Source: Alphaproteobacteria bacterium
GTDB lineage: Bacteria; Pseudomonadota; Alphaproteobacteria; RF32; CAG-239
Reading direction: 5' to 3'
NCBI GenBank assembly: GCA_017470165.1
Contig: JAFUEX010000024.1
Span: 75,398 to 139,397 of the forward strand
Length of the DNA stretch: 64,000 bases
Part shown: one piece after another, positions 9,699-35,482 of the stretch
Numbering within the stretch: position 1 is the stretch's first letter
Layout of the letters: every line of letters starts with the position of its first letter
Position numbers and translations under genes: made by a program
The notes under the pieces: model-generated
What the model was told of the DNA's origin: nothing
What the model saw: the letters and a program-made list of their open reading frames with translations, nothing else
Database searches by the model: none

Positions 9699-10221
9699 TT
9701 TCCACCTCGTCCGTTAAGATTTTGAAATTCTCTTTTTGATCGGTAACCATTGTCACTTTTGGCGCGAGGCGGTTCGGTAGTGCCTTTAGTTTTTCACGCA
9801 ATATACGCGACACGCCGAATGCTGCCTTTTCGACACCTTCTTTGTTGACAACGGTCCCCATCTTTTGTTCATATTCAATTTTGCGCAAGCGGGCGGCATA
9901 GCTTTCCTTAACGGCTCGACTTTTTTGATAAGTGACACTCGATTGGGAATGCTGTCCGGACTCCTCTTCCGGTGCCGCCTCTTGCCTCAATGCCATGCCG
10001 ACGGATTGGGCAGATCTGCCGTCGCTTCGTGGCATTGTAGTCGCAGGATCGTTTGCCGGATCTGCGGTCGCCTTGATTTTGGAGATAGAGGCCTCAAGCT
10101 CTACCATTTCGCGACCGTTCTCACGTGACAGGACAATCCGCCCTTGCTTTATCAGCGAGGAGACGTATTGGTGCGAACGATTTATTCTGCGAGCAAACTC
10201 ACTCTTGGTTATAACTGTCAT
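9649..10221 (-). CDS. Terminase small subunit (Nu1-like, N-terminal HTH).
   Basis: 190 aa with an N-terminal HTH-like segment (SEFARRINRSHQYVSSLIKQGRI). Located immediately upstream of TerL. Confidence 0.6.
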   Translation of the reverse strand: MTVITKSEFARRINRSHQYVSSLIKQGRIVLSRENGREMVELEASISKIKATADPANDPATTMPRSDGRSAQSVGMALRQEAAPEEESGQHSQSSVTYQKSRAVKESYAARLRKIEYEQKMGTVVNKEGVEKAAFGVSRILREKLKALPNRLAPKVTMVTDQKENFKILTDEVESVIKEIQRAISEIINS

Positions 10222-11593
10222 ATTCTCTGCCCTCTACTTCATCAAATGCTTTGCCGTCGCTTTCGCGGTAGGCTTTTCCGCCAAATGTGTCTTGCCACCG
10301 CTTGACGTCTACATCGCAATATTGCGGATCCAATTCCATGAGGCGAGCCTTTCGGTTTAGATTTTCCGCCGCAATAAGCGTTGAGCCCGAACCGCCGAAT
10401 AAATCCATTACGATTTCATTCCGGCAAGAGCTGTTTAACATTGCGCGCTGAGCCAGCTCAACCGGCTTTTGTGTCGGATGCACATATGTGCTGGCATTAT
10501 CGCGCTTAATGGTCCAAATCTCACGACCGGCTTTTAACTCCTTCAGGAGCTCTACCAGCGCGTCACGATCCCATTGCTCGAATTCCCAATCATTGGTTTT
10601 CCAAAATGTCTTTTGCGCACGGTCGCCGAACCATTTGCAATTCTCTCCGTCATGGCAACCATAGAAGCACGGCTCATATGCCCAATGGTAGTCAGAGTGT
10701 CCGAGCACCATTCCTTTATCCCAGATGATGACTTGCTTCGGCTTCAGCTCCGCGCCTTTGATGGCGGTTTCAAAATTTACATGATTACTGTTTGCGTACC
10801 AGATATAAAACGCGCGTCCTTTTCTCAAATACCGTTTTATGTTTTTGAATGCTTCGAGCAGGAACAGAAACAAATCATCTTCACGGAGCTTGTCGTTTTT
10901 GATTATTTGCCATTCTCGGCCGTTCGGATTATTCGTTCCTTTGTAGCTCACGCCATATGGCGGATCTGTAAAGACTAAATCAGCCAGCGCGCCGTCCATC
11001 AATTTATCTACATCATCGGCGTTTGTGCTATCGCCGCACATGACGCGGTGCGGACCGCAAATCCAAACATCACCCCGGCGCGACTTTACCATATCCGGAA
11101 CGGGCGGAGCATTATCCAATTTTTCAACATTAACCTCTTTTGGCTCGTCATCCAAGGAAGTGAGTTCTTCTTCTAATTCGTCGCTTGTCCATCCGGTAGC
11201 TTCAAGATCTGCACCTAGTTCGGACAAACGATCCATTTGTGCTTGCAAATTTTCCCAATTCCATTCTGCCATTTCCGCGGATTTATTATCAAAAATTTGA
11301 TACTGGATCCGCTCGGCTTCCGTCAGATTATGCAGGACAATGACCGGAACTTTTTTTATTCCGAGTTTTAACGCTGCGAGCCGTCTGCCGTGTCCGGCAA
11401 CAATCATTTTGTCGTCATCAATCAAAATCGGGTTTGTCCACCGCTTCGACATTGATTGCGCAATAAGTTCGATTTGTTTTTCCGGATGATTTTTTGTATT
11501 GAGTGGATCCGGCACTAATTCTGATAAATCCATAAGTTCCAGCTTCATGGCGGATAATTTTTCAGCAATTTCCTTTTCGTTTATCTCAGTCAT
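10199..11593 (-). CDS. ParB/Srx-like nuclease domain fused to a beta-class N6A/N4C DNA methyltransferase.
   Basis: The N-terminus carries a ParB-type motif (IVAGHGRRLAALKLG). A DPPY motif IV (FTDPPYGVSY) precedes motif I (DLFGGSGST) near the C-terminus. The start was chosen at MTEINEK and the upstream ATG at 11659 is also possible. Confidence 0.7.
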   Translation of the reverse strand: MTEINEKEIAEKLSAMKLELMDLSELVPDPLNTKNHPEKQIELIAQSMSKRWTNPILIDDDKMIVAGHGRRLAALKLGIKKVPVIVLHNLTEAERIQYQIFDNKSAEMAEWNWENLQAQMDRLSELGADLEATGWTSDELEEELTSLDDEPKEVNVEKLDNAPPVPDMVKSRRGDVWICGPHRVMCGDSTNADDVDKLMDGALADLVFTDPPYGVSYKGTNNPNGREWQIIKNDKLREDDLFLFLLEAFKNIKRYLRKGRAFYIWYANSNHVNFETAIKGAELKPKQVIIWDKGMVLGHSDYHWAYEPCFYGCHDGENCKWFGDRAQKTFWKTNDWEFEQWDRDALVELLKELKAGREIWTIKRDNASTYVHPTQKPVELAQRAMLNSSCRNEIVMDLFGGSGSTLIAAENLNRKARLMELDPQYCDVDVKRWQDTFGGKAYRESDGKAFDEVEGREYDSYNQE

Positions 11594-11791
11594 TTTCGCA
11601 ACTCGTTTTTTTGGGTTGAAACATAGCGAAAGGCCGCGCCTCGCGCTGACCCCCGGCATTTAGCCGTCAGGAAGAACCTATCGTTTAGAATGCCATTTAA
11701 AGCCCCATAAACGCCCTCTGGTGCGTGAGCCTTTTTCTCTGTGTATGGTGTCTTATTTGCGTATAAAATCATTTTCTGCCCTCGTTTTTTT

Positions 11792-14203: not shown

Positions 14204-14212
14204 GTTATTTAT

Positions 14213-14537: not shown

Positions 14538-14548
14538 GGAGGTGTCCG

Positions 14549-15037: not shown

Positions 15038-15040
15038 ATA

Positions 15041-20442: not shown

Positions 20443-20821
20443 TTGTATCTCCTTTTCTTGTCATGAGTATTTTTAATAAGGCATCAAATGCCTCGGCCGG
20501 TTTTGGCCTTTTCTTTCCGGTGGCTTGGATTAACCCTTTATATTTGAAGTAACCTTCCACCAGTAGAAACTCGTCTATTTGAATTGCGTCTGTCAGGTAT
20601 GCCAATGACTTCCGCCATTCGTTTTCGCAGTCTGCTTCGAACATTTTTACAGCTTCCTTCCGATCCCTGTTGCGATGCTCTTGCGCATATATGTTTTCCA
20701 CTTTTCCCGCAAACGCGTCACACCATGCTTGTCTTAAAATTCCGGCTATCAAGTTTTCCTCTGGTGTTTCGAAGAGGAACTTTGCGGGAAGGTGTGTTTT
20801 GTGTCTGCGGTGTTTTGTCAT
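20435..20821 (-). CDS. Hypothetical protein.
   Basis: 128-aa ORF. Confidence 0.35.
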   Translation of the reverse strand: MTKHRRHKTHLPAKFLFETPEENLIAGILRQAWCDAFAGKVENIYAQEHRNRDRKEAVKMFEADCENEWRKSLAYLTDAIQIDEFLLVEGYFKYKGLIQATGKKRPKPAEAFDALLKILMTRKGDTNE

Positions 20822-22260: not shown

Positions 22261-22563
22261 GTACAACCCCTGTCTTTTAACCCTGCCTTTGTTGCTCAAT
22301 TGTGGCGGGCGGCACAGGGTTATTGTGTTTTTGTGCTGATCAAGCACTTCCGCCCGTCGAAATAGACTATAAAAGTATTTTTTGACTTTTGCAAGCACTT
22401 TTTTTGATTTTAATAAACTTTTTTTGCTGTTATTATACTTTATCCTTATTTTTCGGGGTTTTATATGTGTGTAAAGTCAAAAAAATTTCCGTTTTATGAC
22501 TTTTTCATTGAAAAAATCAAAAAATAGAGTTATATTGAGTCAAACTGTTAAAAGGAGAAAAAT

Positions 22564-23133
22564 ATGACACGTAATACATTAAACCAAGGTCCGAAGCGCG
22601 ATGTCAGCCCTCTGGGTAGAAAATTGCACCAGCTTATTCGTGCTGCGAACTATGATTATATTAAAGATTTTGAAAAAGAATCAGGGGTTCGCCCCGATTC
22701 GATTCGTCGCGTGATCGGCGGATATACCAAAAGTTTGCCATTTTCCGACCTACAAAAAGTTGCAACAACTCTTAAAATATCCGTTCAAGAGCTTATGACC
22801 GGATCGGCTGATGGCGAAGCGATTGCCACTTGCAATCTCGTTCCGGGCGCAAAAGAGCCATGTTGGTATCAGGTACATTCTGACGAAATGGCTCCAACAC
22901 TCAAAAGTGGCGACAATGTCCTCGTAGATACAGGCATCAGGACAGTTATTGAGGCCGGTATTTATTTGCTTGGAACACCATCCAGCACGGCATTCCGACG
23001 TATTTCTCACAACCCTGTTACTGGCAAATTGCGGGTTGAGGCCGACAATAAGACTTATTCATATGTTGAGGAAGTTGAGGCCGAAAAATTATCTATTAGA
23101 GGTCGTGTAATCGGAATCTTCCACCGAATTTAA
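22564..23133 (+). CDS. CI/LexA-like phage repressor (HTH plus S24 peptidase).
   Basis: N-terminal HTH and a C-terminal S24-like segment (SDEMAPTLKSGDNVLVD). Transcribed divergently from the early leftward operon. Confidence 0.65.
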   Translation: MTRNTLNQGPKRDVSPLGRKLHQLIRAANYDYIKDFEKESGVRPDSIRRVIGGYTKSLPFSDLQKVATTLKISVQELMTGSADGEAIATCNLVPGAKEPCWYQVHSDEMAPTLKSGDNVLVDTGIRTVIEAGIYLLGTPSSTAFRRISHNPVTGKLRVEADNKTYSYVEEVEAEKLSIRGRVIGIFHRI

Positions 23134-23292
23134 TAAAAAAATACCCCTTTAAAAGCCCTATTTTAAGCCGTTTTTGGATTTTTTTTCTAAAAACGGTATT
23201 TTTTTCTTGATTTTCTGTTTTAAATTGATTAAAGTCATTTTTGACGATTAAAGTCATTAAATACTTTTAACAGTTTAACACAGGGTTATTAA

Positions 23293-24120
23293 ATGAGTAC
23301 GATTATTCGATGTTCTTCTCTCTCGCACTATTCGGATTGCACCCGAAGAGCAGCGGCAAAAATGTTTTTCAAGGAAATTTCGGAAGAGTATGGATTTGAC
23401 CTGACGCTGGTTAACACCTCAGCTGGTGCTGCCGTCGGTACGGCCATGCATAAAGCTTTGGAAGCTGCGATTGTTCTGCGCTCCAAAGGCTTGCCGTATT
23501 CCGACGAAATTAAAAAGGTTGCTGAAACATCCATTCTTGAAACGGTCCGTGAGGGTATTGTCTGGGATGATACGACGTTTGATAAGGCGACCGGTGTAAT
23601 GCAGGCCGTCCGTCAGACTCACTCAATCTTGGACGTTATGCCGGATTTACAGGAGATTGCCATTGAGGGCGAATTTACCGCCGATCTTGGCGACGACTTT
23701 ATTTTGTCCGGACATATCGACATCCGGGGACGTGAGGGAGAGTTGAATACGATTCAAGATTTTAAATCCGGTACGACGGCGCGCGTTAATATTCCGCAGT
23801 ACGGCGGTTATTCTCTACTTACCAGAACGGCCGGTTATAAAGTCGATCTACTCCGTGAAATATACGCCAAACGTGTCGGCAAAACAAAAGCCCAACCGGC
23901 TCCGGTCATTAAGGACTACGAACCGGCTATGGCTGAGAATTTCGCGTGGGCGGTTATAAAAAAGATCAAATCGGATATGCAGACTTTTCGCAAGACTGGA
24001 TCTCCGTGGGTTTGGTTGCCGAACCCGAACTCTATGATGTGCTCTCCGCATTATTGTCCTGCGTATGGCACAAAATTTTGCAAATGCCGTTCATTAAAGA
24101 AAGGAGAAAATAATGGCTAA
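23293..24120 (+). CDS. PD-(D/E)xK exonuclease, Cas4/RecB-like, with a C-terminal Cys cluster.
   Basis: HIDIRGREGELNTIQDFKSG is a D...E-x-K-type motif. The C-terminal CSPHYCPAYGTKFCKC is an Fe-S-like cluster. Confidence 0.5.
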   Translation: MSTIIRCSSLSHYSDCTRRAAAKMFFKEISEEYGFDLTLVNTSAGAAVGTAMHKALEAAIVLRSKGLPYSDEIKKVAETSILETVREGIVWDDTTFDKATGVMQAVRQTHSILDVMPDLQEIAIEGEFTADLGDDFILSGHIDIRGREGELNTIQDFKSGTTARVNIPQYGGYSLLTRTAGYKVDLLREIYAKRVGKTKAQPAPVIKDYEPAMAENFAWAVIKKIKSDMQTFRKTGSPWVWLPNPNSMMCSPHYCPAYGTKFCKCRSLKKGENNG

Positions 24121-24940
24121 CGAAATTGTAACAAAAGAACCGCAAAATGCCGTTTCTACGGATATTCTGTCAGACTTTACGGTTTTTGAAAACGCTCAGA
24201 GAATTGGCAAGATACTGACGCAGTCCGCAATCATTCCATCCAATTTCCAAAATAATCTGCCGAATGTCATGGTTGCTTTGGAGATTTCATGCAGGAATAA
24301 ATTGTCGCCTATCGTCGTGATGCAGAATTTAAATGTTATTCAAGGGCGTCCTTCCTGGTCCTCTAAATTCATTATCGCCGCATTAAGCACGAGCCGTGTG
24401 TTAAATCTTCACTATGAGCTTGTCGAAGATGGAGAGATTGAAGTTCCGGGCGGTTTTAATGGCGCAAAAAAGAAAATTAAAAACTTAAAATGTCGCGCAA
24501 TTGCCAATGATCGCAAAACAGGCGAAGAGCGCATCGGTCCATGGGTAACCATGCAAATGGCCATTGCCGAGGGCTGGTATAGTAAAAGCGGGAGTAAATG
24601 GCAGACAATGCCTGAGGTTATGATCCGCTACCGTGCTGCGACATTCTTCGCGAATGTTTATTATCCGGATTTGTCAGTCGGTATCGATGTCGCCGATGAT
24701 GACGCTTCAGCTCCGGCCAATGTTCCGGCTGTAAATCGTGAAACAGTAACGACCGGTGAAATTGTTGAGCCAGCTCCTGAAGCCCCGGCAAAACCAAAAC
24801 GCAAAAAAGAAGAACCAAAAACGATTGAGGCAGAGGCCGAGCCTGTTACCGTAGAAGCTGAACCGGTTGAAGATAAACCGGCTCAGGTTGTGGCTCCGCA
24901 GACAGACAATGAAGATGCATGGGGGGCTTTCGATGATTAA
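24113..24940 (+). CDS. RecT-like single-strand annealing protein.
   Basis: GPWVT...MPEVMIRYRAATFF resembles the RecT C-terminal motif (GPWVTHW...KTAIRRLFK). The tail is acidic/Pro-rich. It is coupled to the upstream nuclease. Confidence 0.5.
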   Translation: MANEIVTKEPQNAVSTDILSDFTVFENAQRIGKILTQSAIIPSNFQNNLPNVMVALEISCRNKLSPIVVMQNLNVIQGRPSWSSKFIIAALSTSRVLNLHYELVEDGEIEVPGGFNGAKKKIKNLKCRAIANDRKTGEERIGPWVTMQMAIAEGWYSKSGSKWQTMPEVMIRYRAATFFANVYYPDLSVGIDVADDDASAPANVPAVNRETVTTGEIVEPAPEAPAKPKRKKEEPKTIEAEAEPVTVEAEPVEDKPAQVVAPQTDNEDAWGAFDD

Positions 24941-26585
24941 AGCAACAGTTAAAGATTTTATGGGTTGCTCATCCGCCGAAATTGTCGCGGACAAAGTGGC
25001 TCTTTTGCTTGGTTTAAACGGTCAAGGGAAGACAAGCTCGTTACTTCCTATTTCAGCGGCTCTGCGCGGTGGTGTTCCTTTGGGTTTGCAAAAAACAAAA
25101 GCCGGAATGCTGGTTAAGACCGGCGCAGGTGTTTCTTCTATCGTTTTAGAGAATGATACATCAAAGGTTTCGGTTACTTGGCCAAAATGCGAACGACGCG
25201 CCGAAGGTGCAGACGCTCCTGAAGCTTCAGATATTGCCGTCGGTGCGATTAAATTTCCATTCATGCCGGATAAAGACAAAGTTGAGCTGTTACGTGGACT
25301 TTTGAAGTGTGAGCCTAAAAAAGAGGATTTATTCTCCGCTTTGCAGTCAAAAGGTTTGTCTGAGAAAGTTTGCGAGATTGTCTGGCACAGCATTGAGGTT
25401 GAAGGCTGGGATGCTTCCCTTGATCGTGCCAAAGAAAAAGGCCGGAGCTTAAAATCTCAATGGGCATTAAATGCCGGGGAAGCATACGGCGAAAAAAAAG
25501 GCGCGAACTGGTTCCCGGTTGGCTGGGAGAATGACCTTGAGGGATTGTCTGCAGAAGCTTTGGAGACAGAAATCACAACCGCGCGGGCGGAGCTTGAGTT
25601 CAAAATTGCCAATCAGGCTGTTTCTGAGGATGAGTTGGCTCGCCTTCAGGAGATCGCTTCTAAAATTGAAGAATTGCGAGCGGCTCATAATTCAGCCGTC
25701 GAGGCTTTTAATCAAAAAGGCCTTGAACTAAAGAATGCGCAGGATGCCCGCAAAAAATTGCCGGAATTACCTCGTTATGATTTGGTTTGTCCTCATTGCG
25801 GCAAGCCGGTCGCGTATGAGAATGGCAAACTCGTTGAAGTAAAGCAAACAATATCTGATGATGAACGCGCAGAAATGGAGCAAAAAATCCTTGATGCAGA
25901 TAATGCTGTCAGTAAAGCTACGCGCGAATTGTCCACATCCAAGACAGAGGTTGCCCTTGCCGAGCAGAAAGTAAAAGAGGCGGAGAAGGCTTCTGAAGAA
26001 TATCTGGCCAAAAAGGACAAGACTGTTTCGCAGGTAGAAGTTGACGAGGCTCGCGAGGCCGTTCGTAAATCTGAGGCTCGCCGTGATGCCTTTAATAAGT
26101 ATCACGAGGGCGTTCGTATCCATAATAATATCATTGAAAATCAAAAAATAATTGATGTTTTGGATCCGGAAGGCATTCGTCGTGAATCGCTTCAAAAAGG
26201 CCTTGATAATTTTAACGGCGATCTTGAGGCTCTTTGTCGTGTTGCTTGCTGGCAAAACGTCACGGTTGACGGAGATATGTCTGTTAATTACGCCGGTCGT
26301 CCGATCGTTCTTTGCTCGGAGAGTGAAAAGTTCCGCGCATTCGTAACCCTGCAATGCCTGATTGCTGATCTTGATGGTTCTTCGGCGGTGGTTATTGATG
26401 CGGCTGATATTCTCGACAGCAAATCGCGCGCCGGTTTATTCAAGCTCTTAGCTTCTCAGGACTATTGTTCATTTGTCGGTATGACGGTCAGCAGGCCGGA
26501 TAAAGTGCCAAGCCTTCAAAAGCTCGGCATTGGCCGGAAGTATTGGGTTGAGAGTGGTATTTGTGAGGAGATCTACAATGGCTGA
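24933..26585 (+). CDS. SbcC/Rad50-like SMC-type ATPase with a zinc hook.
   Basis: Walker A (GLNGQGKTS), a long coiled-coil-like middle region with CPHCGKPV (CxxC hook), and a C-terminal Walker B/D-loop-like VVIDAADILD. Confidence 0.55.
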   Translation: MIKATVKDFMGCSSAEIVADKVALLLGLNGQGKTSSLLPISAALRGGVPLGLQKTKAGMLVKTGAGVSSIVLENDTSKVSVTWPKCERRAEGADAPEASDIAVGAIKFPFMPDKDKVELLRGLLKCEPKKEDLFSALQSKGLSEKVCEIVWHSIEVEGWDASLDRAKEKGRSLKSQWALNAGEAYGEKKGANWFPVGWENDLEGLSAEALETEITTARAELEFKIANQAVSEDELARLQEIASKIEELRAAHNSAVEAFNQKGLELKNAQDARKKLPELPRYDLVCPHCGKPVAYENGKLVEVKQTISDDERAEMEQKILDADNAVSKATRELSTSKTEVALAEQKVKEAEKASEEYLAKKDKTVSQVEVDEAREAVRKSEARRDAFNKYHEGVRIHNNIIENQKIIDVLDPEGIRRESLQKGLDNFNGDLEALCRVACWQNVTVDGDMSVNYAGRPIVLCSESEKFRAFVTLQCLIADLDGSSAVVIDAADILDSKSRAGLFKLLASQDYCSFVGMTVSRPDKVPSLQKLGIGRKYWVESGICEEIYNG

Positions 26586-26787
26586 TAAGGATGATATTGT
26601 AACTGCGATTGACCCGAAAACGCTATCAAAACGCTGGAATGTGTCCACCAAGACGCTGTCTGCTTGGCGCACGGCTGGTCGCGGTCCGAAGTTTTTCTAC
26701 GCGAACGAGGATGACAAGTCCTCTGTTCGCTACCCATTGAAGGAAATTGAAGCCCAAGAGGCTCGGCTTCATGATCACAGCCTTTAA
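26578..26787 (+). CDS. Excisionase/AlpA-family HTH protein.
   Basis: LSKRWNVSTKTLSAWRTAGRGPKF is typical of phage Xis/AlpA DNA-binding domains. Confidence 0.5.
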   Translation: MADKDDIVTAIDPKTLSKRWNVSTKTLSAWRTAGRGPKFFYANEDDKSSVRYPLKEIEAQEARLHDHSL

Positions 26788-26801
26788 CAAAGGAAAATGT
26801 T

Positions 26802-26966
26802 ATGCCGATACGCGAAAAGATTGAGGAATTTATGAAAAAAGCTATTTCGACGGCTCGTTATGTTGCTTTACCGAATGCCGATAAAAAAACGGCATCGCAA
26901 ATGGTGAAAGAGCTCGAAGAAGAGGCCGAAGAACTTAAAGAGGAGATGGCTCGTGTTCTGCGTTAA
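26802..26966 (+). CDS. 54-aa acidic small protein.
   Basis: MPIREKIEEFMKKAISTARYVALPNADKKTASQMVKELEEEAEELKEEMARVLR, below the ORF-track cutoff. Confidence 0.3.
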   Translation: MPIREKIEEFMKKAISTARYVALPNADKKTASQMVKELEEEAEELKEEMARVLR

Positions 26967-27354
26967 TTGTCAAAAAGAGGTTGATGCGCAAATTGTTACG
27001 GGTGCAGACGTGTACGGTCTTCTGACGTTCAATAAATCAGAGCCGTTCGCTCGCTGTCCGCATTGCGGCAATTATGGCGAATATGCCATAGATAAGGAGC
27101 CGCCGTTTTCGGTCATTCCTAATTTTGAATTACGCAAGGCTTATAATCACATCGATTGTCATTTTCAATGCCTTTGGATGCAGAAAAAAATGACCAAGGC
27201 TGAAGCTGAAGCCAAAATGGCTTGGCTTATGTATAACGGTTCTCATCCGTATCGCACGCATGAAATCCGCACACGCGATGAGGCTGTCAAGGCCTATCGC
27301 TTCGCAAAACAGCTTTATAAGGAGTATATTTCAGATGCTACAAAAAATTCATAG
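26953..27354 (+). CDS. Zinc-ribbon protein.
   Basis: CVNC...CPHC pairs in a 133-aa ORF. Confidence 0.4.
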   Translation: MFCVNCQKEVDAQIVTGADVYGLLTFNKSEPFARCPHCGNYGEYAIDKEPPFSVIPNFELRKAYNHIDCHFQCLWMQKKMTKAEAEAKMAWLMYNGSHPYRTHEIRTRDEAVKAYRFAKQLYKEYISDATKNS

Positions 27355-27499
27355 TTTATTTTGTCGCCATTTTTGGCTTCATGTGTTAACCCTCGGCGGT
27401 TTTTGTTCAACAAAACACGGAATGTATGAAATTCCGGGCAATATTTATATTGACTACTGTCCGAAGTGCCATTCTATACGGGGGCGCCATGAAAGATAA
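27335..27499 (+). CDS. 54-aa zinc-ribbon protein.
   Basis: MLQKIHSLFCRHFW...CPKCHSIRGRHER. It is embedded in the longer 27260-27499 track ORF in the same frame. Confidence 0.3.
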   Translation: MLQKIHSLFCRHFWLHVLTLGGFCSTKHGMYEIPGNIYIDYCPKCHSIRGRHER

Positions 27500-28118
27500 G
27501 GAAATCACAGCCGAAATCATCCGCAGATTGCGCTTAATGCCGGAACATAGGAGAGATATTTATTTCCCTGAATTCCGCTGGTGCGCAGGTGTGGCTGGTT
27601 CGCGCCGTGCAGACGCATTCTTTATTCTTGCGCGTCCGCCTTATTTTTCCGTTACCTATGAAGTTAAAGCAAATCATTGGGATTTTGAGCGGGATCTGCA
27701 GAACGCAGAAAAGCATAGCAAAGCTCGGCAATACTCAAACATCTTCTATTATGCGGCTCCGGCCGGTGCTATTCGTCCGGAAGAGTTACCGGAGTGGGCT
27801 GGCTTGGTTGAGTTTGATTTATCAATTCTGGCCGATGAATACACACAAGGTGCAATGGTTGTCAAGCAAGCCCCGCTTCATGACAGAGAGGATCCGGGTT
27901 GGGATTTGATCGCAAGCATTGCAAAACGGCTTCAGGATCCTGCGTTTCGTTTCGAGGCTCACGGTATGCACCTGATTTCAAATGATCAGCTCATGCAGTT
28001 GAAGTCTTTAATCGGTCAGCAGGTCCAAGCAAATAAAATTCTGCAGGCCGGATCCTCGGCAATGATGTCGGCTTTGGCTATTGTCAGCAAAATTTTTAAC
28101 CGAAAGGACAAGCTATGA
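27489..28118 (+). CDS. MmcB-like PD-(D/E)xK family protein.
   Basis: AGSRRADAFFI...YEVKANHWDFERD...NIFYYAAP resembles the MmcB/DUF1052 pattern. Confidence 0.4.
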   Translation: MKDKEITAEIIRRLRLMPEHRRDIYFPEFRWCAGVAGSRRADAFFILARPPYFSVTYEVKANHWDFERDLQNAEKHSKARQYSNIFYYAAPAGAIRPEELPEWAGLVEFDLSILADEYTQGAMVVKQAPLHDREDPGWDLIASIAKRLQDPAFRFEAHGMHLISNDQLMQLKSLIGQQVQANKILQAGSSAMMSALAIVSKIFNRKDKL

Positions 28119-29495
28119 CAGAGATTGTTTTTGTTGACTTGTTCTCCGGCATCGGCGGGTTTGCGGAAGGTTTCCGCCGGGCTGGATTAAAATTCAGATA
28201 TCACGCTTTTTCCGAAATAGATAAAAACGCGATTAGTATTTATAAAAAACACTTTCCTGAAGCAAAGGAGTTAGGCGATGTCCGAACAATTAGAGATTTT
28301 TCAACCATCAGAAATCAACGGGGGGGGGTGCCGCTGGTCGTCACTTTCGGATTTCCTTGTCAAGATCTATCAGTTGCTGGCAAAAGGCGAGGACTTGAAG
28401 GCTCTCGAAGCGGGTTATTCTTTGAAGCAATGCGGGTTATCCGAGAATTGCAACCCGATGTTTTTATCTTTGAAAACGTCAAAGGTCTTCTCTCAAGTAA
28501 CAAAGGACAAGACTTTGTCCGCTGTCTGCAGGAAATTGCCGACCTTGGGAATTATGACGGGCAATGGCAGCTTGTCAATACTAGCTGGATATTACCCCAA
28601 AATCGAGAGCGGATTTACTTTGTCGGCACTCTTAGAGGACAAACCAGACGCCAAGTATTTCCTCTCGTCGACAGCGGTCAGTCGGATTCTCGGTTACAAG
28701 GACAACGAGCTTGCTGCCTTACAGCAAGATATTTCCAGTCAACCGGCGGCGGAACGTATTTTATTGAACGTAAACAGCATAAAGAAGGCAACGATGAAAA
28801 ATCCGCAAGGAACAAGAATTAACACGATTGACGGCAATTCTGTCGCTTTGCAGTCATGCGCTGGCGGCATGGGTGCAAAAACAGGACTGTATTGCGTTCC
28901 GCGTGGCAAGCGCGACGGCGGTTTTAAGGACGGTGACACTTGTCCGACAATAACCGCGAACGCCTTTCAGCAAAATAATTTCATCGTTCCCGTTTTAACG
29001 CCTGATCGCGTAAATAAAAGGCAAAATGGACGCCGCTTCAAAGAAGCCGGAGAACCTTCATTTACCCTGACAACGCAAGATAGACACGGCATTTATGACG
29101 GCATTGATATCCGTCGTCTGACACCTCTTGAATGTGAACGTCTACAGGGTTTTCCGGACGGTTGGACGGAGACCGGCGAAAATGGGCAGAGAATGTCGGA
29201 CACGGCACGTTATAAGGCACTCGGCAACGCGGTCAGCGTGTGCTTTCCTGAATTGATCGCAAAATCTTTGTTTATGGAGAATGAAATGACAGCAGACGTT
29301 ATTCAGTTCCCTCAAAAGAAAAAGGAGAACTTGAACGCGGTCTATGTCCTTTTGGATACGGTCCGCAAAATGCACGATGAGGACGGCTATCGCTTTGCTT
29401 CCTCGGAGTTGAAAGAAAACAGCCAAGGCAAGGTGGTCTTGACTTTGGTTATGGATAAACCAGATCCGGACGACCTTCCGGACATAACAGCATAG
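28115..29495 (+). pseudogene. C5-cytosine DNA methyltransferase disrupted by a single frameshift near 28640.
   Basis: Frame A has motif I (FSGIGGF), motif IV (GFPCQDLSVAGK), motif VI (ENVKGL) and motif VIII (QNRERIYFVG). Frame B continues with AKYFLS, motif IX (RRLTPLECERLQGFPDGW) and motif X (YKALGNAVSV). A G9 tract lies at 28320-28328. Confidence 0.7.
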
Positions 29496-29504
29496 GAGAA
29501 TAAA

Positions 29505-29792
29505 ATGGCAAATCAAAGTGTGGGCAATGGCGCCCTTTTCAAAAACGATAAGCAGGGCGTTGATACGCGTCCGGATTATACCGGAACTGCAAAAATATGG
29601 GACAAGGAGTTTTTCTTGTCAGCTTGGATTAAAAAAAGCCAGTCTGGCAAAACTTATATGTCGCTTTCGTTCAAAGTAAACGAGAAAGGATCGCAGGCTT
29701 CAGGTAGTCAAGCTACTGCTCAACCTACTGGTCAACCTGCTGACCAAGCTCCGGCTTCTTCAGCCCCGGTTGATGATGATATTCCGTTCTAG
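29505..29792 (+). CDS. Short SSB-like protein with a C-terminal DDDIPF tip.
   Basis: 95 aa with an N-terminal ~60-aa globular part. The middle is a Q/P/A/S-rich low-complexity linker. The protein ends in the exact SSB acidic tip DDDIPF. Confidence 0.5.
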   Translation: MANQSVGNGALFKNDKQGVDTRPDYTGTAKIWDKEFFLSAWIKKSQSGKTYMSLSFKVNEKGSQASGSQATAQPTGQPADQAPASSAPVDDDIPF

Positions 29793-29830
29793 GAGACAGC
29801 CCATGAAAAATAAAAATAAAAGGAGAAAAA

Positions 29831-30145
29831 ATGTTTAACACTTTGTTTTTGCCGTTAAAGGCTGGATGGTTCGACAAGATAAAGTCTGGCAAAAAGACTT
29901 TTGAGTTCCGGGCTTGCAAGCCTTATTGGATTGTCAGGCTCACGCCGACAGTTGCTTATTTCAAGGATGGGACGGTTCTTGAAGATAAGGACTTAAAAAT
30001 TTACACGTCCGTTCGATTTGCGCGCGGTTATTCCGGGGAACAAATCACTTTTAAGATTGCCGGTTGTGAAGTCGTTGACGGCTCAAATACTGATTTAGCC
30101 ATTAACGAGCCGGTGTTTGCAATTAAACTTGGAGAAAGGTTATAA
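29831..30145 (+). CDS. ASCH/PUA-like domain protein.
   Basis: FDKIKSGKKTFEFR near the N-terminus resembles the ASCH motif. Confidence 0.3.
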   Translation: MFNTLFLPLKAGWFDKIKSGKKTFEFRACKPYWIVRLTPTVAYFKDGTVLEDKDLKIYTSVRFARGYSGEQITFKIAGCEVVDGSNTDLAINEPVFAIKLGERL

Positions 30146-30147
30146 AA

Positions 30148-31164
30148 ATGAAAAAAACAGCAGAATTTGTGTCATTAGGGCATCCGGATAAAACAGCGGA
30201 TTTTATTTCGAGTTATGTGCTTGACCGTTTAATTGAGCAGGATCCTCACGTAAAATATGCGGTTGAGGTCATGGTTAAAGATAACGAGGTTATTTTGGGC
30301 GGTGAAGTCAAGGGTAACGTTGAGTTCTCTCTAGCCACCCTTCAAACTTGGATTTATGATGCCTTGGCAAAAATAGGCTATACCGAGGACTATTCAAAGC
30401 GGTGGGGTGTCAATGCCATCAATCCCTTAAAGGTTAACGTCACGAATTTAATCGGTAAACAGTCAGGAGATATCAACCAAGGCGTTGAAGCTGACGGCTG
30501 GGGTGATCAAGGTGTCTTTGTTGGCTACGCTTGCAAAAGTGAAGGCAAAGTCAGCCGAGAGCTCTTCCTTGCGCGTAAATTAAACCACGCTCTCTATGAA
30601 ATGGCCAAAACGAGCGAAAATTTTGGAATTGATATTAAAACGCAAATAACAATGAATGACATCGGCGGTGTCGAAACGGCGATTGTTGCGATTCCCATGC
30701 TCAAAGAGATTGATCTGCGCGACTTTGTCACTTCTGTTCTTGGCGAGGAGCCGGAGAATATCATTATAAACGGGACTGGTCGTTATGTTATGCATTCTTC
30801 TATTGCTGATTGCGGGGTTACCGGTCGTAAGCTCGCTTGCGACTTCTATTCTACAACTTGCGCCGTCGGTGGTGGTTCGCCATGGACAAAGGACGCCAGC
30901 AAGGCAGACGTTTCATTGAATATCCTTGCTCGCAAATTGGCTGTTGAAAATTTAGACGGTGCGCATGAATGCTGGGTTTATCTTTCTTCGTGCATTGGTC
31001 GCGCCGATTTGCCGTCCGTTGAGGTTGTTCGCAAGACTGGCATGGCGATCGGCTATAGAGATGTCAAGATTGGCAAACCGTCAGAAATTATCGAGGAGCT
31101 TGGGTTGAATAAGCCGGTATTCGCCGACTTGTGTGCTCGTGGTATTACCGAGGTTTATAAATAA
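30148..31164 (+). CDS. S-adenosylmethionine synthetase-like protein (short MetK).
   Basis: The N-terminal GHPDKTADFISSYVLD matches the MetK GHPDK signature. 338 aa against ~384 aa for bacterial MetK. Confidence 0.55.
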   Translation: MKKTAEFVSLGHPDKTADFISSYVLDRLIEQDPHVKYAVEVMVKDNEVILGGEVKGNVEFSLATLQTWIYDALAKIGYTEDYSKRWGVNAINPLKVNVTNLIGKQSGDINQGVEADGWGDQGVFVGYACKSEGKVSRELFLARKLNHALYEMAKTSENFGIDIKTQITMNDIGGVETAIVAIPMLKEIDLRDFVTSVLGEEPENIIINGTGRYVMHSSIADCGVTGRKLACDFYSTTCAVGGGSPWTKDASKADVSLNILARKLAVENLDGAHECWVYLSSCIGRADLPSVEVVRKTGMAIGYRDVKIGKPSEIIEELGLNKPVFADLCARGITEVYK

Positions 31165-31190
31165 AAAACAGCCATACTTTAAAGTTTTAT

Positions 31191-31231
31191 AACGGCAGTC
31201 ATAAAGTATCATTTGACTGCCGTTATTTTTG
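31191..31231 (+). terminator. Rho-independent terminator after the MetK-like gene.
   Basis: aacggcagtca...tgactgccgtt stem followed by a T-run. Confidence 0.6.
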
Positions 31232-31317
31232 GTTAAAAATTCGCATCTGCTACCTATTTGCTACCTGCATTTTTTAACTTCATTTTAAAGTTTTGATTTT
31301 ATTGTGTTTTTGGCACT

Positions 31318-31373
31318 ACCTCGTCAGGCTCATAACCTGAAGGTCGGAGGTTCAAATCCTCCCCCCGCAACCA
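31318..31373 (+). tRNA. 3' fragment of a host tRNA-Met(CAT) (fMet-like); candidate att core.
   Basis: CTCGTCAGGCTCATAACCTGAAGGTCGGAGGTTCAAATCCTCCCCCCGCAACCA matches E. coli tRNA-fMet from the D-stem onward. The 5' acceptor and D-arm are absent. Confidence 0.6.
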
Positions 31374-32515: not shown

Positions 32516-33593
32516 GATTAATGAATAAGAGCAATTTTATTTTTCATAGAGGGGCTGAGTTTTCACAAAGCCCCTTTTTCCGTTCTAAAGAAAAGAGGAC
32601 TCCCTAGGAGTTTTATACGGTCTTTAAGAAAGGGATTTATCAATGGCAACATTCGAAGACGGCGAAAAAGTAAGAATTAACAAACAATATCAGGAAATTG
32701 TTCGGAAAATTCCACTTTCAGCACCTTTGGATTTAAGGCGGGCGGTTGAAGTTGCCGCTCGGATTATTTTCTGTATCTGACTTTCCAACTACCTTGACTG
32801 TTCAGATGGCAGATAGCGCAAGAAAGTATCTTTGAACTGAGATTTTTATATCTGCACTTATCCGCTAGTCAACTGAAAAGGTCAGTCCGTTTGCCGATAC
32901 TTTAGCTTTTTTTCTCTTTCTTTGAAATAATTTTCAATATATTCACTTACCTGTTCGTTTTTTTCATCAACTGAAAAATACATACCGCCACAGGTATCGT
33001 GAAAATGAAGTTCGATTCCAAAATTTTCTTTTATTTTCTTCTTTAGATCTATAACAATATTTAACATATTTTCTACTGCCTGTTAAAATATATTTTTGTA
33101 TTATAATATAATTTATTTATTTTTTTCTATTATATTTTTTAGGGAAGAGCATGAAAAGATTTTAATTTTGAACAAACTAAAATTATCATTAAAAAAATCA
33201 ACATGTTAATTCGGTATAATTTTCCTTTTTTGTTAGTCTTGCACAACCAGTAAAATCAAGGCTTTCAGAGTTTTCTGGAAGCCTTTAATTTTTGCCAGTG
33301 CTACGCAGGTGCTACACCATTTTTTGGAAATTTAGTCTTGGTTCGGTTGCTTAAAAGCGATTAAAAATCCCCGATTTCCCTTGTGAATAAAAAATGTTAA
33401 AGAAGTCTCATTCTTTAACATTTTCTCTGGAATTGCCTAAAATACTATAGTTTTGAAAATGGCTAAAATACCGAATATAAAAAATGTTAAACTTTGTTCG
33501 GATTACAAACATTATTTAACATTCATACAATACTTTCACATTGACTTTTGAAATGCAAAAATTAATATTAATTTCAATATGACGAGGTAACAC

Positions 33594-34670
33594 ATGAAAA
33601 AATTTGTTTTGATTTCTAGTTTGTTAATAGCTTTTAGTATCAATGTTTGGGCTAATGAAACTAAAAATTCGGCTTGGGAGGGTCTTTGGGATTATCAAAG
33701 ATATGCAGTAAATCCCTCCGGCGTTTTAGAAATAACTGATTGTCAAAATAATTTGTGCCATTTTAGTATTAATACTGCCAATGGGGCACATACTTGTATG
33801 CTTGAAGGAAAATTAAAAACAAGTGCTTATAAAGCTGAATATAGGGAAAAAATAGAAACAGCAGAAGGTAAGTATGATGATATCGTTATTACATTTGAAC
33901 TGAATCCCGATAAAAACTTTATAGAGATAGATGCAAATTATGCTTCTCGTATGTATTGCGGTATGCAAGGATATTTTATTGGCAAATATGAAAATCAAAA
34001 CAATCCGCTACGTTATGATACTGGTTTTGATTGCTGGGCAAAAGATTTAACAGATACACAAAAAATTATTTGCGCTGAAGAAGAATTAGCTCGTGCTGAT
34101 AAAGAGATGACTGAAAATTATCAATCCGAACAAACAAACGAATGGTATAATAAACGGGAAATTTGCCATAATGATAAAAGATGTCTGTGGGAATTTTATA
34201 TTTCTTCCATAAAGTCCGCTTATGAGAAGAAAAATAACAAATCTGTTAATTTCTATGAATACATGGGTAATTTGTCAGATGATACCCCATATTATCCGAC
34301 AGATTTTTCTTTACTTTATGATTTTTTCATCAAAAATATGCAAAACAAAGATTTTGAACAGTGGAAAGTTGCTTTTTCTCAAATTTCTATGGACAATAGT
34401 AAATGTAATCAATGTCGTTACCATGAATATGGTTTGCCTGGTTTATATACCATTGCGGAATCAGCTTTTTATATCAACAAAAATGAAATATGGCTTGCTT
34501 TTTTACACATTGATAATGATACAAATAAAAAGCATATAGTGATATATGCTATGCCTGATAGGGAAGAAAAAGATATTCCTGCTGAATTTGACAACTGGCT
34601 GGATCGCTTAAAAGAACATTTTCCTGATGGAATTAAACTAAAGTATTTTACCGACACAAAAAATAAGTGA
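33594..34670 (+). CDS. Secreted DUF1311 (LprI-like) domain protein.
   Basis: Signal peptide. The DTQKIICAEEELARADKEMTENYQ motif is typical of the DUF1311/LprI N-terminal domain. Very AT-rich. Confidence 0.45.
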   Translation: MKKFVLISSLLIAFSINVWANETKNSAWEGLWDYQRYAVNPSGVLEITDCQNNLCHFSINTANGAHTCMLEGKLKTSAYKAEYREKIETAEGKYDDIVITFELNPDKNFIEIDANYASRMYCGMQGYFIGKYENQNNPLRYDTGFDCWAKDLTDTQKIICAEEELARADKEMTENYQSEQTNEWYNKREICHNDKRCLWEFYISSIKSAYEKKNNKSVNFYEYMGNLSDDTPYYPTDFSLLYDFFIKNMQNKDFEQWKVAFSQISMDNSKCNQCRYHEYGLPGLYTIAESAFYINKNEIWLAFLHIDNDTNKKHIVIYAMPDREEKDIPAEFDNWLDRLKEHFPDGIKLKYFTDTKNK

Positions 34671-34915
34671 ATGATATCGTTTTTTATTAATACATTTAAT
34701 GACTTTTAAAAGATATCATTCACTTTAATATTAAGGATATTTTCTCAATAATTCCAGAGCTTTTGCATTTTCAAGAGTAAATCGGTTGTTAGTAATGTTA
34801 TTTCTGTAGGATGCTGAGCTATTTCTGAAATTATTGGGATTTCCTCTTTCAGTTTGGTAACGGTTTCTGATTCGGAGTTTATGTTTTTGCATAGGGTGTC
34901 TTTATATTGATTGCA

Positions 34916-35482
34916 CTAAGATTTTGATTGTTTGGCTTCGGACTCGTTTTGGGTTTGGGCTGCTTCCTTATCAGCAGTTTGTGACTGCGCTTTGCTCTCT
35001 TCTGCCTGAAGTTTTTCATACTCTTCTTCAGTAATCTCTTGGGGGAGATTTTTGTTGACTTCATTGACGGTGCTGTTCTGCGATGTGCCGTCAACTTTCA
35101 AAGTGTCACCGAATTCGCTTGCGCTGATGCCGGTCGGCTTGAAGGCTACTTGTGCTGAGAGGTTGGTTTGACTGCGGTCGGTAAAATAGTCAATCAACAT
35201 TCCCATCCAAGAGATGAGAAACAGGCCGATAGCCAAAGAGCCAAACCATTTCCAGTTGATTTTGCCCCAGATACAGCCCCAGGCCAGACCGACCAAGCCG
35301 AATCCGCCCAAACAATAGGCAATGTATTTGAACTCGTTGATGGCAGTGGCGGCGCGGGAACGAATCGTAAAGAGGATGGAGGCCTCAGCCGATGTGATGC
35401 AGACGCCCAAGGCCAGCAGAATTACGCAGAATACCAAGCATAAGCGGCGGAAGTCGAGGGAAAAAGAAAATAGTTTGGTCAT
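34916..35482 (-). CDS. VirB2/TrbC-like pilin paralog.
   Basis: AGGAGG ribosome-binding site. Hydrophobic leader plus GGFGLVGLAWGCIWGKINWKWFGSLAIGLFLISW, shared with the two neighbouring paralogs. Confidence 0.55.
   Translation of the reverse strand: MTKLFSFSLDFRRLCLVFCVILLALGVCITSAEASILFTIRSRAATAINEFKYIAYCLGGFGLVGLAWGCIWGKINWKWFGSLAIGLFLISWMGMLIDYFTDRSQTNLSAQVAFKPTGISASEFGDTLKVDGTSQNSTVNEVNKNLPQEITEEEYEKLQAEESKAQSQTADKEAAQTQNESEAKQSKS

What the first reader, a model, noticed from the sequence alone, without database searches (positions are those of the whole stretch)
30148..31164. Phage-encoded short MetK-like SAM synthetase at the prophage end, next to two DNA methyltransferase genes.
The GHPDKTADFIS signature and overall layout indicate a methionine adenosyltransferase. 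It is about 45 aa shorter than bacterial MetK and divergent.

It lies downstream of the C5-MTase, with a ParB-MTase elsewhere in the phage. It may boost SAM supply for phage DNA methylation or for evading SAM-dependent defences. Alternatively it could be catalytically altered.
Basis: partly seen in the sequence, partly recalled or inferred. Interest (0 to 1): 0.6.

Follow-up and report, generated by a model that had tools for sequence, protein, structure and literature searches.

The report
Prophage copy of a short SAM synthetase
The last gene of this prophage encodes a compact but apparently fully functional enzyme that makes the methyl donor SAM, a known kind of phage helper gene that most likely feeds the phage's own DNA-methylating enzymes, and the same short enzyme type also sits in the chromosomes of the host's bacterial relatives.

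Summary
The ORF at 30148-31164 (+, 338 aa) is real and has a methionine adenosyltransferase (MAT/MetK) fold. All catalytic and ligand-binding residues of E. coli MetK are kept, here and in 192-193 of 193 relatives, and dN/dS is 0.06-0.10. It is therefore very probably an active SAM synthetase, not a pseudo-enzyme.

It is the last gene of a prophage early operon. A terminator and the phage-borne 3' piece of tRNA-fMet (attachment core) follow it.

In related viral contigs, 69 of 80 loci carry a ParB-type N6/N4 DNA methyltransferase on the same strand, and 34 are direct neighbours. Here that methyltransferase lies 18.5 kb away beside the terminase. A C5-methyltransferase made of two overlapping ORFs lies 650 bp upstream.

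Phage MAT genes next to methylases are already described (Phi1207.3, Javan prophages, viral metK auxiliary genes). This is a new member of a known kind.

One unexpected result: about 60 of the 80 best hits in reference genomes are stand-alone chromosomal genes of uncultured gut Alphaproteobacteria, the host's clade. The "short, divergent" form is therefore probably the host lineage's own MAT type, exchanged with its phages. Function was not tested experimentally.

The parts
30148..31164 (+). Short MAT (SAM synthetase-like) gene, 338 aa. Signature motifs: GHPDK (11-15), GWGDQG (117-122), DIK (162-164), DCGVTGRK (221-228), GGGSPWTKD (241-249), SKAD (251-254).
   Evidence: ORF. Pfam/NCBIfam/PHROG matches. 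PDB sequence matches. AlphaFold model with pLDDT 80.6 and pTM 0.84, and Foldseek top hits all MATs with TM 0.75-0.79. Catalytic residues conserved. dN/dS 0.06-0.10.
30131..30139 (+). Shine-Dalgarno-like GGAGAAAGG, 8 nt before the ATG. It lies inside the end of the upstream gene, whose stop is at 30143-30145, 2 nt before the MAT start.
   Evidence: Read directly from the sequence.
31189..31232 (+). Intrinsic terminator: a 13-bp stem followed by a T-run. It closes the early operon.
   Evidence: RNA fold -22.5 kcal/mol, z = -5.2, 0 of 200 shuffles as stable. The element is conserved in relatives L088 and L090.
31320..31373 (+). 3' fragment of tRNA-fMet (…CTCATAACCTGAAGGTCGGAGGTTCAAATCCTCCCCCCGCAACCA). 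This is the attachment-site core marking the right end of the prophage.
   Evidence: Sequence. No complete tRNA is called here by ARAGORN or Rfam. Similarity to related phages ends at 31373. In L085 and L090 the same element is followed by an integrase. In L084 it is followed by host genes and repeated tRNA-end scars.
29831..30145 (+). 104-aa gene of PHROG 625 with a faint ASCH/PUA-like match. It is always paired with the MAT gene in this phage lineage.
   Evidence: PHROG 625 at 1.5e-12. Pfam ASCH only at E = 0.034. The pair is present in L083-L090.
28115..28822 (+). C5 DNA methyltransferase, N-terminal half (motifs I-VIII), 235 aa.
   Evidence: PF00145 at 8e-49, profile positions 3-167 of 324. 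PADLOC orphan methyltransferase PDLC03734, positions 3-169 of 444.
28794..29495 (+). C5 DNA methyltransferase, C-terminal half (target-recognition region and motifs IX-X), in the +1 frame. This frame is open from 28278. An AAGAAGG-N6-ATG at 28794 is a plausible own start.
   Evidence: PF00145 positions 233-322 of 324. PDLC03734 positions 308-435 of 444. The same frame break is present in relative L090 at 81% aa identity. Sequence.
10199..11659 (-). ParB-like domain fused to an N6/N4 DNA methyltransferase (DPPY and FGGSGS motifs), directly upstream of the small and large terminase genes (9649-10221, 7451-9385).
   Evidence: PF01555 at 1.8e-28 and a weak ParB_N match. PADLOC MTase_II at 3e-105. 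38-40% identical to the methyltransferases that neighbour the MAT in viral contigs. Translation. Terminase assignment.
23293..31164 (+). Early operon ending in the MAT gene. Order: PD-(D/E)XK exonuclease, RecT, SbcC-like protein, small ORFs, DUF3268 protein, PHROG 5429 protein, split C5-methyltransferase, SSB-like protein, ASCH-like protein, MAT.
   Evidence: Pfam/PHROG matches. A promoter-like site lies at 23275, after a terminator-like hairpin at 23167-23197 that follows the repressor gene. Genes are tightly packed on one strand.
22564..23133 (+). CI-like repressor with an S24 peptidase domain, in a separate transcription unit upstream of the early operon.
   Evidence: PF00717 at 4e-8 and PHROG 4 'transcriptional repressor'. 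Terminator-like hairpin at 23167-23197.

Best explanation
The gene encodes an active, compact methionine adenosyltransferase that makes S-adenosylmethionine from ATP and methionine. It probably works as a homodimer, which is the obligatory catalytic unit of this enzyme family.

It is transcribed as the last gene of the early operon after the CI-like repressor is inactivated. It would add SAM-synthesising capacity to the induced or infected cell, so that the phage's own DNA methyltransferases can fully methylate many replicating genome copies before packaging. Those enzymes are the split C5-methyltransferase in the same operon and the ParB-type N6/N4 methyltransferase next to the terminase. Fully methylated progeny DNA would be protected from restriction in the next host.

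Shown here: gene, fold, conserved catalytic residues, purifying selection, position in the operon and prophage, and conserved linkage to methyltransferases in related phages.

Inferred: enzymatic activity, timing of expression, and that SAM supply limits phage methylation.

The enzyme type is the same as the chromosomal MAT of the host's clade, so the phage copy is most likely a captured host-lineage gene.
For: Fold and family:
- Pfam N and C domains score above their cut-offs.
- 45 solved MATs match by sequence.
- Foldseek top hits to the AlphaFold model are all MATs, E down to 6e-26, TM 0.75-0.79.

Catalysis:
- H14, D16, E42, E55, Q98, D118, K165, D238, R244, K245, K265, K269 and D271 (E. 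coli numbering) are conserved in 192-193 of 193 family members.
- These match the substrate-binding motifs that Kieft et al. list for viral MetK.
- The unusual 'HSS' motif replacing GGP is shared with the C. jejuni MAT, 4le5.

Selection:
- dN/dS is 0.06-0.10 against relatives with dS 0.5-1.8.
- Some relatives carry inteins inside the gene. By general knowledge, inteins persist in functionally constrained sites.

Link to methylation:
- 69 of 80 IMG/VR loci have an N6_N4/ParB methyltransferase on the same strand. 34 are directly adjacent, in either gene order, often with overlapping stop and start codons, usually just before the terminase.
- 18 of 20 phage-context loci in reference genomes also have it.
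- Streptococcus phage Javan346 has SAM synthetase, adenine methyltransferase, cytosine methyltransferase and terminase in a row.
- In Phi1207.3 the authors proposed the SAM synthetase as methyl-donor supplier for the neighbouring methylase.
- This phage has both methyltransferase types intact.

Host-lineage enzyme:
- About 60 of 80 reference-genome loci are stand-alone genes among ordinary cellular genes.
- Their gene tree is congruent with local gene order.
Against: - No activity data exist for any member of this subfamily. PHROG 1569 is labelled 'unknown function'.
- The protein scores 159 bits against the NCBIfam metK equivalog model, whose cut-off is 309. The Pfam central domain is below its cut-off.
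- It lacks about 33 C-terminal residues including the AAYGHFGR segment, a 12-residue helix, and 5 residues after the gating loop.
- Family-invariant changes lie beside active-site motifs: A116W, G233H, F262P, S263W, R272L/V.
- The AlphaFold model is poor for residues 223-253, which hold the TGRK and GGG loops.
- In this phage the MAT is not adjacent to the ParB-methyltransferase.
- The neighbouring C5-methyltransferase is absent from the closest relatives that keep the MAT. The tie to any one methyltransferase is therefore loose.
- If the host already has the same enzyme type, the need for a second copy is an assumption.
Confidence: 0.6

Rival explanations
1. Lysogenic-conversion gene. The prophage copy is expressed for the benefit of the lysogen, giving extra SAM for host methylation, polyamines or signalling, rather than serving phage DNA methylation.
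For: The gene sits at the very end of the prophage next to the attachment site, a usual place for cargo genes. In Streptococcus agalactiae, deleting a truncated prophage metK changed aggregation and biofilm, and a plasmid copy partly restored the phenotype (PMC8223999).
Against: The gene has no promoter of its own. It starts 2 nt after the upstream gene, inside a tightly packed recombination/early operon that begins after a terminator following the repressor gene. In most related phages it lies beside a methyltransferase and the terminase, not at an end.
Confidence: 0.15
2. Counter-defence or competition. The phage MAT restores SAM when a host defence or a competing phage's SAM-degrading enzyme depletes it, or it escapes the feedback control acting on the host enzyme.
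For: SAM availability is a known battleground. T3 SAM lyase degrades SAM and inhibits MetK to escape type I restriction and BREX (bioRxiv 10.1101/2023.02.27.530186). The phage copy is only about 64% identical to the chromosomal type, so it could differ in regulation.
Against: No defence or anti-defence model matches the protein (PADLOC). No SAM-dependent defence system was seen in the window. The conserved neighbours are methyltransferases, not anti-defence genes.
Confidence: 0.1
3. Non-catalytic subunit that pairs with the host MAT and alters or blocks it. Active sites of this family lie in the dimer interface.
For: The phage protein is the same enzyme type as the host clade's chromosomal MAT, at 62-67% identity, so mixed dimers are conceivable. 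The dimer is the obligatory functional unit of MATs (PMC9202080).
Against: Every catalytic residue is invariant across 193 members, and dN/dS is about 0.06-0.10 over the whole gene. A mere binding protein would not need this.
Confidence: 0.05
4. Altered specificity. The enzyme makes a SAM analogue from another nucleotide or amino acid, used for an unusual DNA modification by the linked methyltransferases.
For: Family-invariant substitutions lie next to the nucleotide and triphosphate loops: GAGDQG to GWGDQG, GGP to HSS, GGGAFSGKD to GGGSPWTKD.
Against: The methionine- and ATP-contacting residues are unchanged. HSS is also present in the C. jejuni MAT. The same enzyme type is a stand-alone chromosomal gene in many bacteria, where ordinary SAM is what is needed. 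The partner methyltransferases have ordinary DPPY and FxGxG motifs.
Confidence: 0.05

Closest known systems
Prophage SAM synthetases of streptococcal phages (Phi1207.3 orf29, 353 aa; Javan prophages, about 345 aa; S. agalactiae 12/111phiA MetK)
   Same: These are phage- or prophage-encoded MATs that are shortened at the C-terminus. They sit in one module with a ParB-domain DNA methylase and/or a C5 methylase ahead of the terminase. They were proposed to supply the methyl donor.
   Different: Only about 35% identical to the window protein. The streptococcal proteins keep the canonical GAGDQG, GGS/GGP, GGGAFSGKD and KVDRS motifs and score strongly with all three Pfam domains. The window protein belongs to the separate GWGDQG/HSS/GGGSPWTKD subfamily. 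In this phage it has moved to the end of the early operon.
Viral metK auxiliary metabolic genes (Kieft et al., bioRxiv 10.1101/2021.01.05.425418)
   Same: That study reports MetK homologues on viral genomes with conserved substrate-binding motifs and dN/dS below 1, abundant in gut samples, sometimes together with dcm. The window gene fits every point.
   Different: That work interprets metK within sulfur and methionine metabolism. It does not describe this short subfamily, its tight linkage to ParB-type methyltransferases, or its chromosomal counterpart in gut Alphaproteobacteria.
Bacterial MetK: E. coli (1P7L and others) and the 'unusual' dimeric C. jejuni MAT (4LE5)
   Same: Three-domain MAT fold and all catalytic residues are shared. 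The HSS motif is shared with the C. jejuni enzyme.
   Different: 28-32% identity and 46 aa shorter. It lacks the C-terminal segment, lies below the NCBIfam equivalog cut-off, and has W118, P245 and W246 substitutions.
T3-type SAM lyase (SAMase)
   Same: Both are phage enzymes acting on the host SAM pool during infection.
   Different: The direction is opposite: SAMase destroys SAM and inhibits MetK to disarm SAM-dependent restriction. There is no sequence or fold relation.

Membership tests
Methionine adenosyltransferase (MetK/MAT, EC 2.5.1.6) | Three-domain MAT fold (Pfam PF00438, PF02772, PF02773) | tested here: met
   The N domain (70.9 bits) and C domain (49.6 bits) score above their cut-offs. 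The central domain scores 27.2, against a cut-off of 29. Foldseek top hits to the AlphaFold model are all MATs, TM 0.75-0.79.
Methionine adenosyltransferase (MetK/MAT, EC 2.5.1.6) | Catalytic, metal-, ATP- and methionine-binding residues (H14, D16, E42, E55, Q98, D118, K165, D238, R244, K245, K265, K269, D271 of E. coli) | tested here: met
   All are present in the window protein and in 192-193 of 193 relatives. They match the motif list quoted from Komoto 2004.
Methionine adenosyltransferase (MetK/MAT, EC 2.5.1.6) | Score above the curated equivalog threshold (NCBIfam TIGR01034, 309.4 bits) | tested here: not met
   The score is 159.3 bits. NCBI accordingly names it only 'methionine adenosyltransferase domain-containing protein'.
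Methionine adenosyltransferase (MetK/MAT, EC 2.5.1.6) | Complete C-terminal segment (…AAYGHFGR…PWEK…) | tested here: not met
   The alignment ends at about E. coli residue 350. The last 33 or so residues are absent in the whole subfamily.
Methionine adenosyltransferase (MetK/MAT, EC 2.5.1.6) | Synthesis of SAM from ATP and methionine by a dimer | not testable with these tools
   This needs an enzyme assay or complementation. Only a monomer was modelled, and residues 223-253 have pLDDT below 50.
Phage-encoded MAT auxiliary gene linked to DNA methyltransferases | Encoded inside a phage or prophage genome | tested here: met
   The element is lambda-like, with terminase, portal, protease and capsid genes, a CI-like repressor, RecT and an attachment core. 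Relatives occur on 47-48 kb phage contigs with an integrase.
Phage-encoded MAT auxiliary gene linked to DNA methyltransferases | Phage DNA methyltransferase(s) in the same genome, typically adjacent | tested here: met
   The same operon holds a split C5-methyltransferase 650 bp upstream. The ParB-N6/N4 methyltransferase lies at 10199-11659. Direct adjacency is seen in relatives (34 of 80 loci) but not in this phage.
Phage-encoded MAT auxiliary gene linked to DNA methyltransferases | Raises SAM or methylation during infection | not testable with these tools
   This needs SAM measurement and methylome sequencing with and without the gene.

The most novel reading that the evidence does not exclude
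The 333-338 aa 'GWGDQG-type' MAT is the only, housekeeping SAM synthetase of a whole clade of uncultured gut and rumen Alphaproteobacteria (Ca. Enterousia, 'Azospirillum sp. 51_20' and relatives). It is a minimal dimeric form lacking the canonical C-terminus. It has been captured several times by the phages of these bacteria, which place it beside ParB-type DNA methyltransferases. More distant phage versions (37-47% identity) branch outside the bacterial clade, so the bacterial enzyme could even be of phage origin.
Probability: 0.3. Interest if true: 0.5.

Novelty: new member of a known kind. Interest (0 to 1): 0.3.

Why it matters
In itself this is an ordinary auxiliary gene. Phage SAM synthetases next to DNA methylases have been annotated since at least 2014 and catalogued as viral metK.

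Its modest value lies in three points:
- It gives a function to a populous phage protein family that PHROGs still lists as unknown (PHROG 1569).
- It shows quantitatively that this family travels with ParB-type methyltransferases near the packaging genes. That makes "SAM supply limits phage self-methylation" a testable idea.
- It reveals that the same minimal MAT is a chromosomal gene in a poorly known group of gut bacteria, with signs of repeated exchange between host and phage.

A 338-residue MAT that retains all catalytic residues may also interest enzyme engineers.

Tried and rejected
- **Pseudo-enzyme reading:** rejected, because all catalytic residues are invariant and dN/dS is about 0.06-0.10.
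- **Longer family members (660-730 aa) as MAT-methyltransferase fusions:** they are not fusions. At least two carry intein/LAGLIDADG insertions inside the MAT. The insert in three others has no Pfam match.
- **C5-methyltransferase as a frameshifted pseudogene or assembly error:** rejected, because the same frame break is present in relative L090 at 81% aa identity and the two ORFs match complementary halves of one methyltransferase profile.
- **tRNA-Met at 5490-5566 as the left attachment site:** rejected. It shares only 10 nt with the fragment at 31320-31373 and lies inside the late operon between terminase and portal, so it is a phage tRNA gene. The left prophage end is outside the window.
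- **SAM riboswitch upstream of the phage gene or of 11 chromosomal copies:** none found.
- **PADLOC defence models for the MAT, the ASCH-like protein and the low-GC island genes:** no match.
- **H. pylori 'phage' hits in the phage database:** these are the host metK flanking the prophage, not phage genes.
- **My first count of methyltransferases 'at 12 bp downstream in 69 of 80 loci':** this was wrong, because the distance formula mixed upstream and downstream genes.
- **Whether M.EcoGII-type non-specific methylases are ParB fusions:** the papers held could not settle this, so it is not used as evidence.
- **PDB sequence search for the ASCH-like protein:** gave nothing.
Full report
**1. The observation.**
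The window has a single ATG ORF at exactly 30148-31164 (+) of 338 aa, with LGHPDKTADFIS at residues 10-21.
- Pfam finds the N- and C-terminal S-AdoMet synthetase domains above their curated cut-offs. The central domain is just below its cut-off (27.2 against 29 bits).
- NCBIfam's metK equivalog model matches over almost the full length, but at 159 bits against a cut-off of 309.
- PHROGs places the protein in family 1569, 'unknown function', at 1e-70.
- All 45 solved structures that match by sequence are MATs. The best is the C. jejuni enzyme 4le5 (2e-42), and E. coli MetK matches at 1e-31.
- An AlphaFold model built on 40 homologues (pLDDT 80.6, pTM 0.84) has only MATs among its top Foldseek hits, with TM 0.75-0.79.
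- The protein is 46 aa shorter than E. coli MetK and about 32% identical to it.

**2. Catalytic competence.**
I aligned the window protein, 120 database homologues, 72 viral-contig homologues and E. coli MetK.
- H14, D16, E42, E55, Q98, S99, I102, D118, D163, K165, D238, R244, K245, K265, K269, D271 and I302 are conserved in 192-193 of 193 sequences.
They also cover the substrate-binding motifs that Kieft et al. list for viral MetK.

What differs from E. coli MetK:
- About 33 C-terminal residues are missing, including AAYGHFGR.
- A 12-residue segment (IIKPILPAEWLT) is deleted.
- Five residues just after the gating loop are deleted.
- Five substitutions are invariant within the family: A116W (GWGDQG), G233H (HSS in place of GGP), F262P, S263W (GGGSPWTKD) and R272L/V.
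- The HSS motif also occurs in the C. jejuni MAT (alignment).

Other points on function:
- dN/dS against four relatives is 0.06-0.10, with dS 0.5-1.8.
- Some family members of 700-731 aa carry LAGLIDADG inteins inside the MAT.
- The model is unreliable for residues 223-253, which hold the TGRK and GGG loops. In real MATs these loops are ordered at the dimer interface.

I conclude that this is very probably an active MAT. Activity itself was not tested.

**3. Where the gene sits.**
The element is a lambda-like prophage. On the minus strand it has gpA-type terminase (7451-9385), lambda-type portal (3647-5119), prohead protease and major capsid genes (1130-2146). It also has a primase/helicase (16919-19414) and a DEAD helicase (20818-22398). 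On the plus strand, a CI-like S24 repressor (22564-23133) is followed by a terminator-like hairpin.

A tightly packed operon then runs from 23293 to 31164. Its gene order is exonuclease, RecT, SbcC-like protein, small ORFs, DUF3268 protein, PHROG 5429 protein, C5-methyltransferase, SSB-like protein, a 104-aa PHROG 625 protein, and the MAT.
- The MAT start lies 2 nt after the preceding stop and has its own GGAGAAAGG ribosome-binding site.
- After the MAT comes a strong hairpin terminator.
- At 31320-31373 lies the 3' 54 nt of tRNA-fMet.
- Similarity to related phages ends precisely at 31373.
- In phage-sized contigs of relatives (L085, L090) the same tRNA piece is followed by an integrase and tail/lysis genes.
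- In an integrated relative (L084) it is followed by host genes.

The MAT is therefore the last gene at the right prophage junction. The integrase end lies outside the window. The host is an uncultured gut alphaproteobacterium, and NCBI already calls the protein (MBQ9236158.1) a 'methionine adenosyltransferase domain-containing protein'.

**4. The methyltransferases.**
The C5-methyltransferase consists of two overlapping ORFs.
- ORF 28115-28822 holds motifs I-VIII.
- The +1 frame, open from 28278 to 29495, holds the target-recognition region and motifs IX-X.
- Both match complementary halves of one PADLOC orphan-methyltransferase profile.
- The same break is present in relative L090, at 81% aa identity.
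- An AAGAAGG-N6-ATG at 28794 could start the second half.

This looks like a naturally split enzyme, as known to me for M.AquI (recalled from memory, not checked), or a +1 frameshift. It does not look like a dead gene. The gene is missing from the closest relatives L084-L089, which keep the PHROG 625 + MAT pair.

The ParB-N6/N4 methyltransferase (10199-11659, minus strand; DPPY and FGGSGS motifs) lies directly upstream of the terminase genes.

**5. Comparative context.**
A scan of IMG/VR found 80 loci encoding relatives at 36-66% identity.
- Clustering their neighbours showed an N6_N4 methyltransferase family, with a ParB N-terminal domain in a tested representative, on the same strand in 69 of 80 loci.
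- 34 of these are direct neighbours, with a gap of about 100 nt or less, in either order and often with overlapping stop and start codons. About 60 lie within 2 kb.
- Terminase genes usually follow.
- Four of the 11 loci without that family have a C5-methyltransferase nearby.

Annotated phages show the same module:
- Streptococcus phage Javan346 has SAM synthetase, adenine methyltransferase, cytosine methyltransferase and terminase.
- Phi1207.3 has orf29 SAM synthetase, orf32 ParB-methylase and orf33 C5-methylase. [quoted passage not shown]
- Kieft et al. list viral metK as a widespread auxiliary gene that sometimes occurs with dcm.

**6. An unexpected twist.**
A scan of one genome per GTDB species found 438 relatives. 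The best 80, at 62-67% identity, are almost all from uncultured gut and rumen Alphaproteobacteria.
- Only 20 of these loci have phage neighbours such as ParB-methyltransferase, DUF6362, DUF6291, serine recombinase or terminase.
- In the other 60 or so, the gene stands alone with 100-250 nt spacers among ordinary cellular genes. These include alanyl-tRNA synthetase, Na+/H+ antiporter, OmpH, AsmA, NUDIX, GNAT and glycosyltransferases.
- Two or three of these 60 may lie beside prophages.
- In a neighbour-joining tree, the chromosomal copies group by host subclade and share local gene order within subclades. For example, five members of one clade lie next to alaS. This indicates vertical inheritance.
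- Phage-context copies form several separate clades. Some are nested inside chromosomal groups and others, including the window's clade, are basal.
- More distant viral members branch outside.
- One MAG (RGIG5458) has both a chromosomal-type and a phage-type copy.

The short 'divergent' MAT is therefore most likely the host lineage's own enzyme type, exchanged repeatedly with its phages. This in turn supports its being a working SAM synthetase.

**7. Mechanism proposed.**
On induction the early operon is transcribed, and MAT is made together with the recombination genes and the C5-methyltransferase. The additional SAM synthesis sustains methylation of replicating phage DNA by the C5 enzyme and, later, by the ParB-type enzyme made with the packaging genes.

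By my own rough estimate, from general knowledge and not computed here, a burst of about 100 genomes of about 45 kb methylated at short motifs needs 10^4-10^5 or more methyl groups. That is of the order of a bacterial cell's whole SAM pool, so supply could limit methylation.

Shown: anatomy, conservation, linkage. Inferred: activity, timing, limitation.

The rivals are all less well supported, and their evidence is set out under rival explanations. They are host benefit in the lysogen, counter-defence, a non-catalytic subunit, and altered specificity.

**8. Verdict.**
Interest is modest. It comes mainly from the family-level findings: an unannotated PHROG family, quantitative linkage to ParB-type methyltransferases, chromosomal counterparts in gut Alphaproteobacteria, and inteins.

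Noticed in passing
window 28115-29495 (+); also L090 7040-8527: The C5 DNA methyltransferase is encoded by two overlapping ORFs in different frames (motifs I-VIII, then the recognition region plus motifs IX-X in the +1 frame). The second frame stays open for 181 codons inside the first. The same arrangement is conserved in a relative at 81% aa identity, and gene callers pick only the longer second ORF. PHROG 16143 ('DNA methyltransferase', 139 positions) matches the out-of-frame part, so such calls may be common in databases.
   Followed up: partly
proteins P0174, P0188 (700-731 aa); P0175, P0185, P0186 (663-695 aa): Relatives of the short MAT are interrupted by inteins with LAGLIDADG homing endonuclease domains after about residue 126-158. 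In three other proteins a roughly 330-aa insert without a Pfam match sits after the TGRK motif.
   Followed up: partly
window 5490-5566 and 5661-5747 (+): Two tRNA genes lie on the opposite strand inside the phage late operon, between terminase and portal. One is an initiator-like tRNA-Met (CAT). The other is an 85-87 nt tRNA with an anticodon ARAGORN could not name (Rfam 40 bits). The phage also integrates into tRNA-fMet.
   Followed up: no
window 27389-27489 (+): ARAGORN calls a 101-nt 'tRNA-His (atg)' here, inside or at the start of a coding region. Rfam does not confirm it, so it is probably a false positive.
   Followed up: partly
L084 11219-11660: In an integrated relative, the tRNA-fMet 3' end (…CAAATCCTTCCCCCGCAACCA) occurs three times in tandem at about 180-nt spacing after the prophage. 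This looks like scars of repeated integration at the same site.
   Followed up: no
L085 15534-18738; L090 16181-19066: Close relatives of this phage carry a reverse transcriptase next to a tail-fibre-like gene with an mtd domain, which is a diversity-generating retroelement. The corresponding part of this prophage lies left of the window.
   Followed up: no
window 12000-15100: A low-GC (about 36%) insert inside the prophage runs on the opposite strand to its neighbours. It holds a BRO-N/D5-like protein (13126-14007) and a DUF2442 + HI1420-type antitoxin-like HTH protein (14495-15037). It looks like a cargo island.
   Followed up: partly
window 33000-35000 and 47700-50900: Host regions of very low GC (28-35% against about 50% around them) encode proteins of 358, 566 and 453 aa with no Pfam match. 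The 358-, 566- and 453-aa proteins also have no PADLOC match.
   Followed up: partly
window 29831-30145 (+): A 104-aa PHROG 625 protein with only a faint ASCH/PUA-like match is translationally close-coupled to the MAT gene. It is kept with the MAT in all close relatives, even where the C5-methyltransferase is lost. Its role is unknown.
   Followed up: partly
L084 15468-21017: Next to the integration site of a related prophage, the host carries an OLD-family TOPRIM ATPase plus a UvrD helicase (a Gabija-like pair) and a type I restriction R subunit.
   Followed up: no
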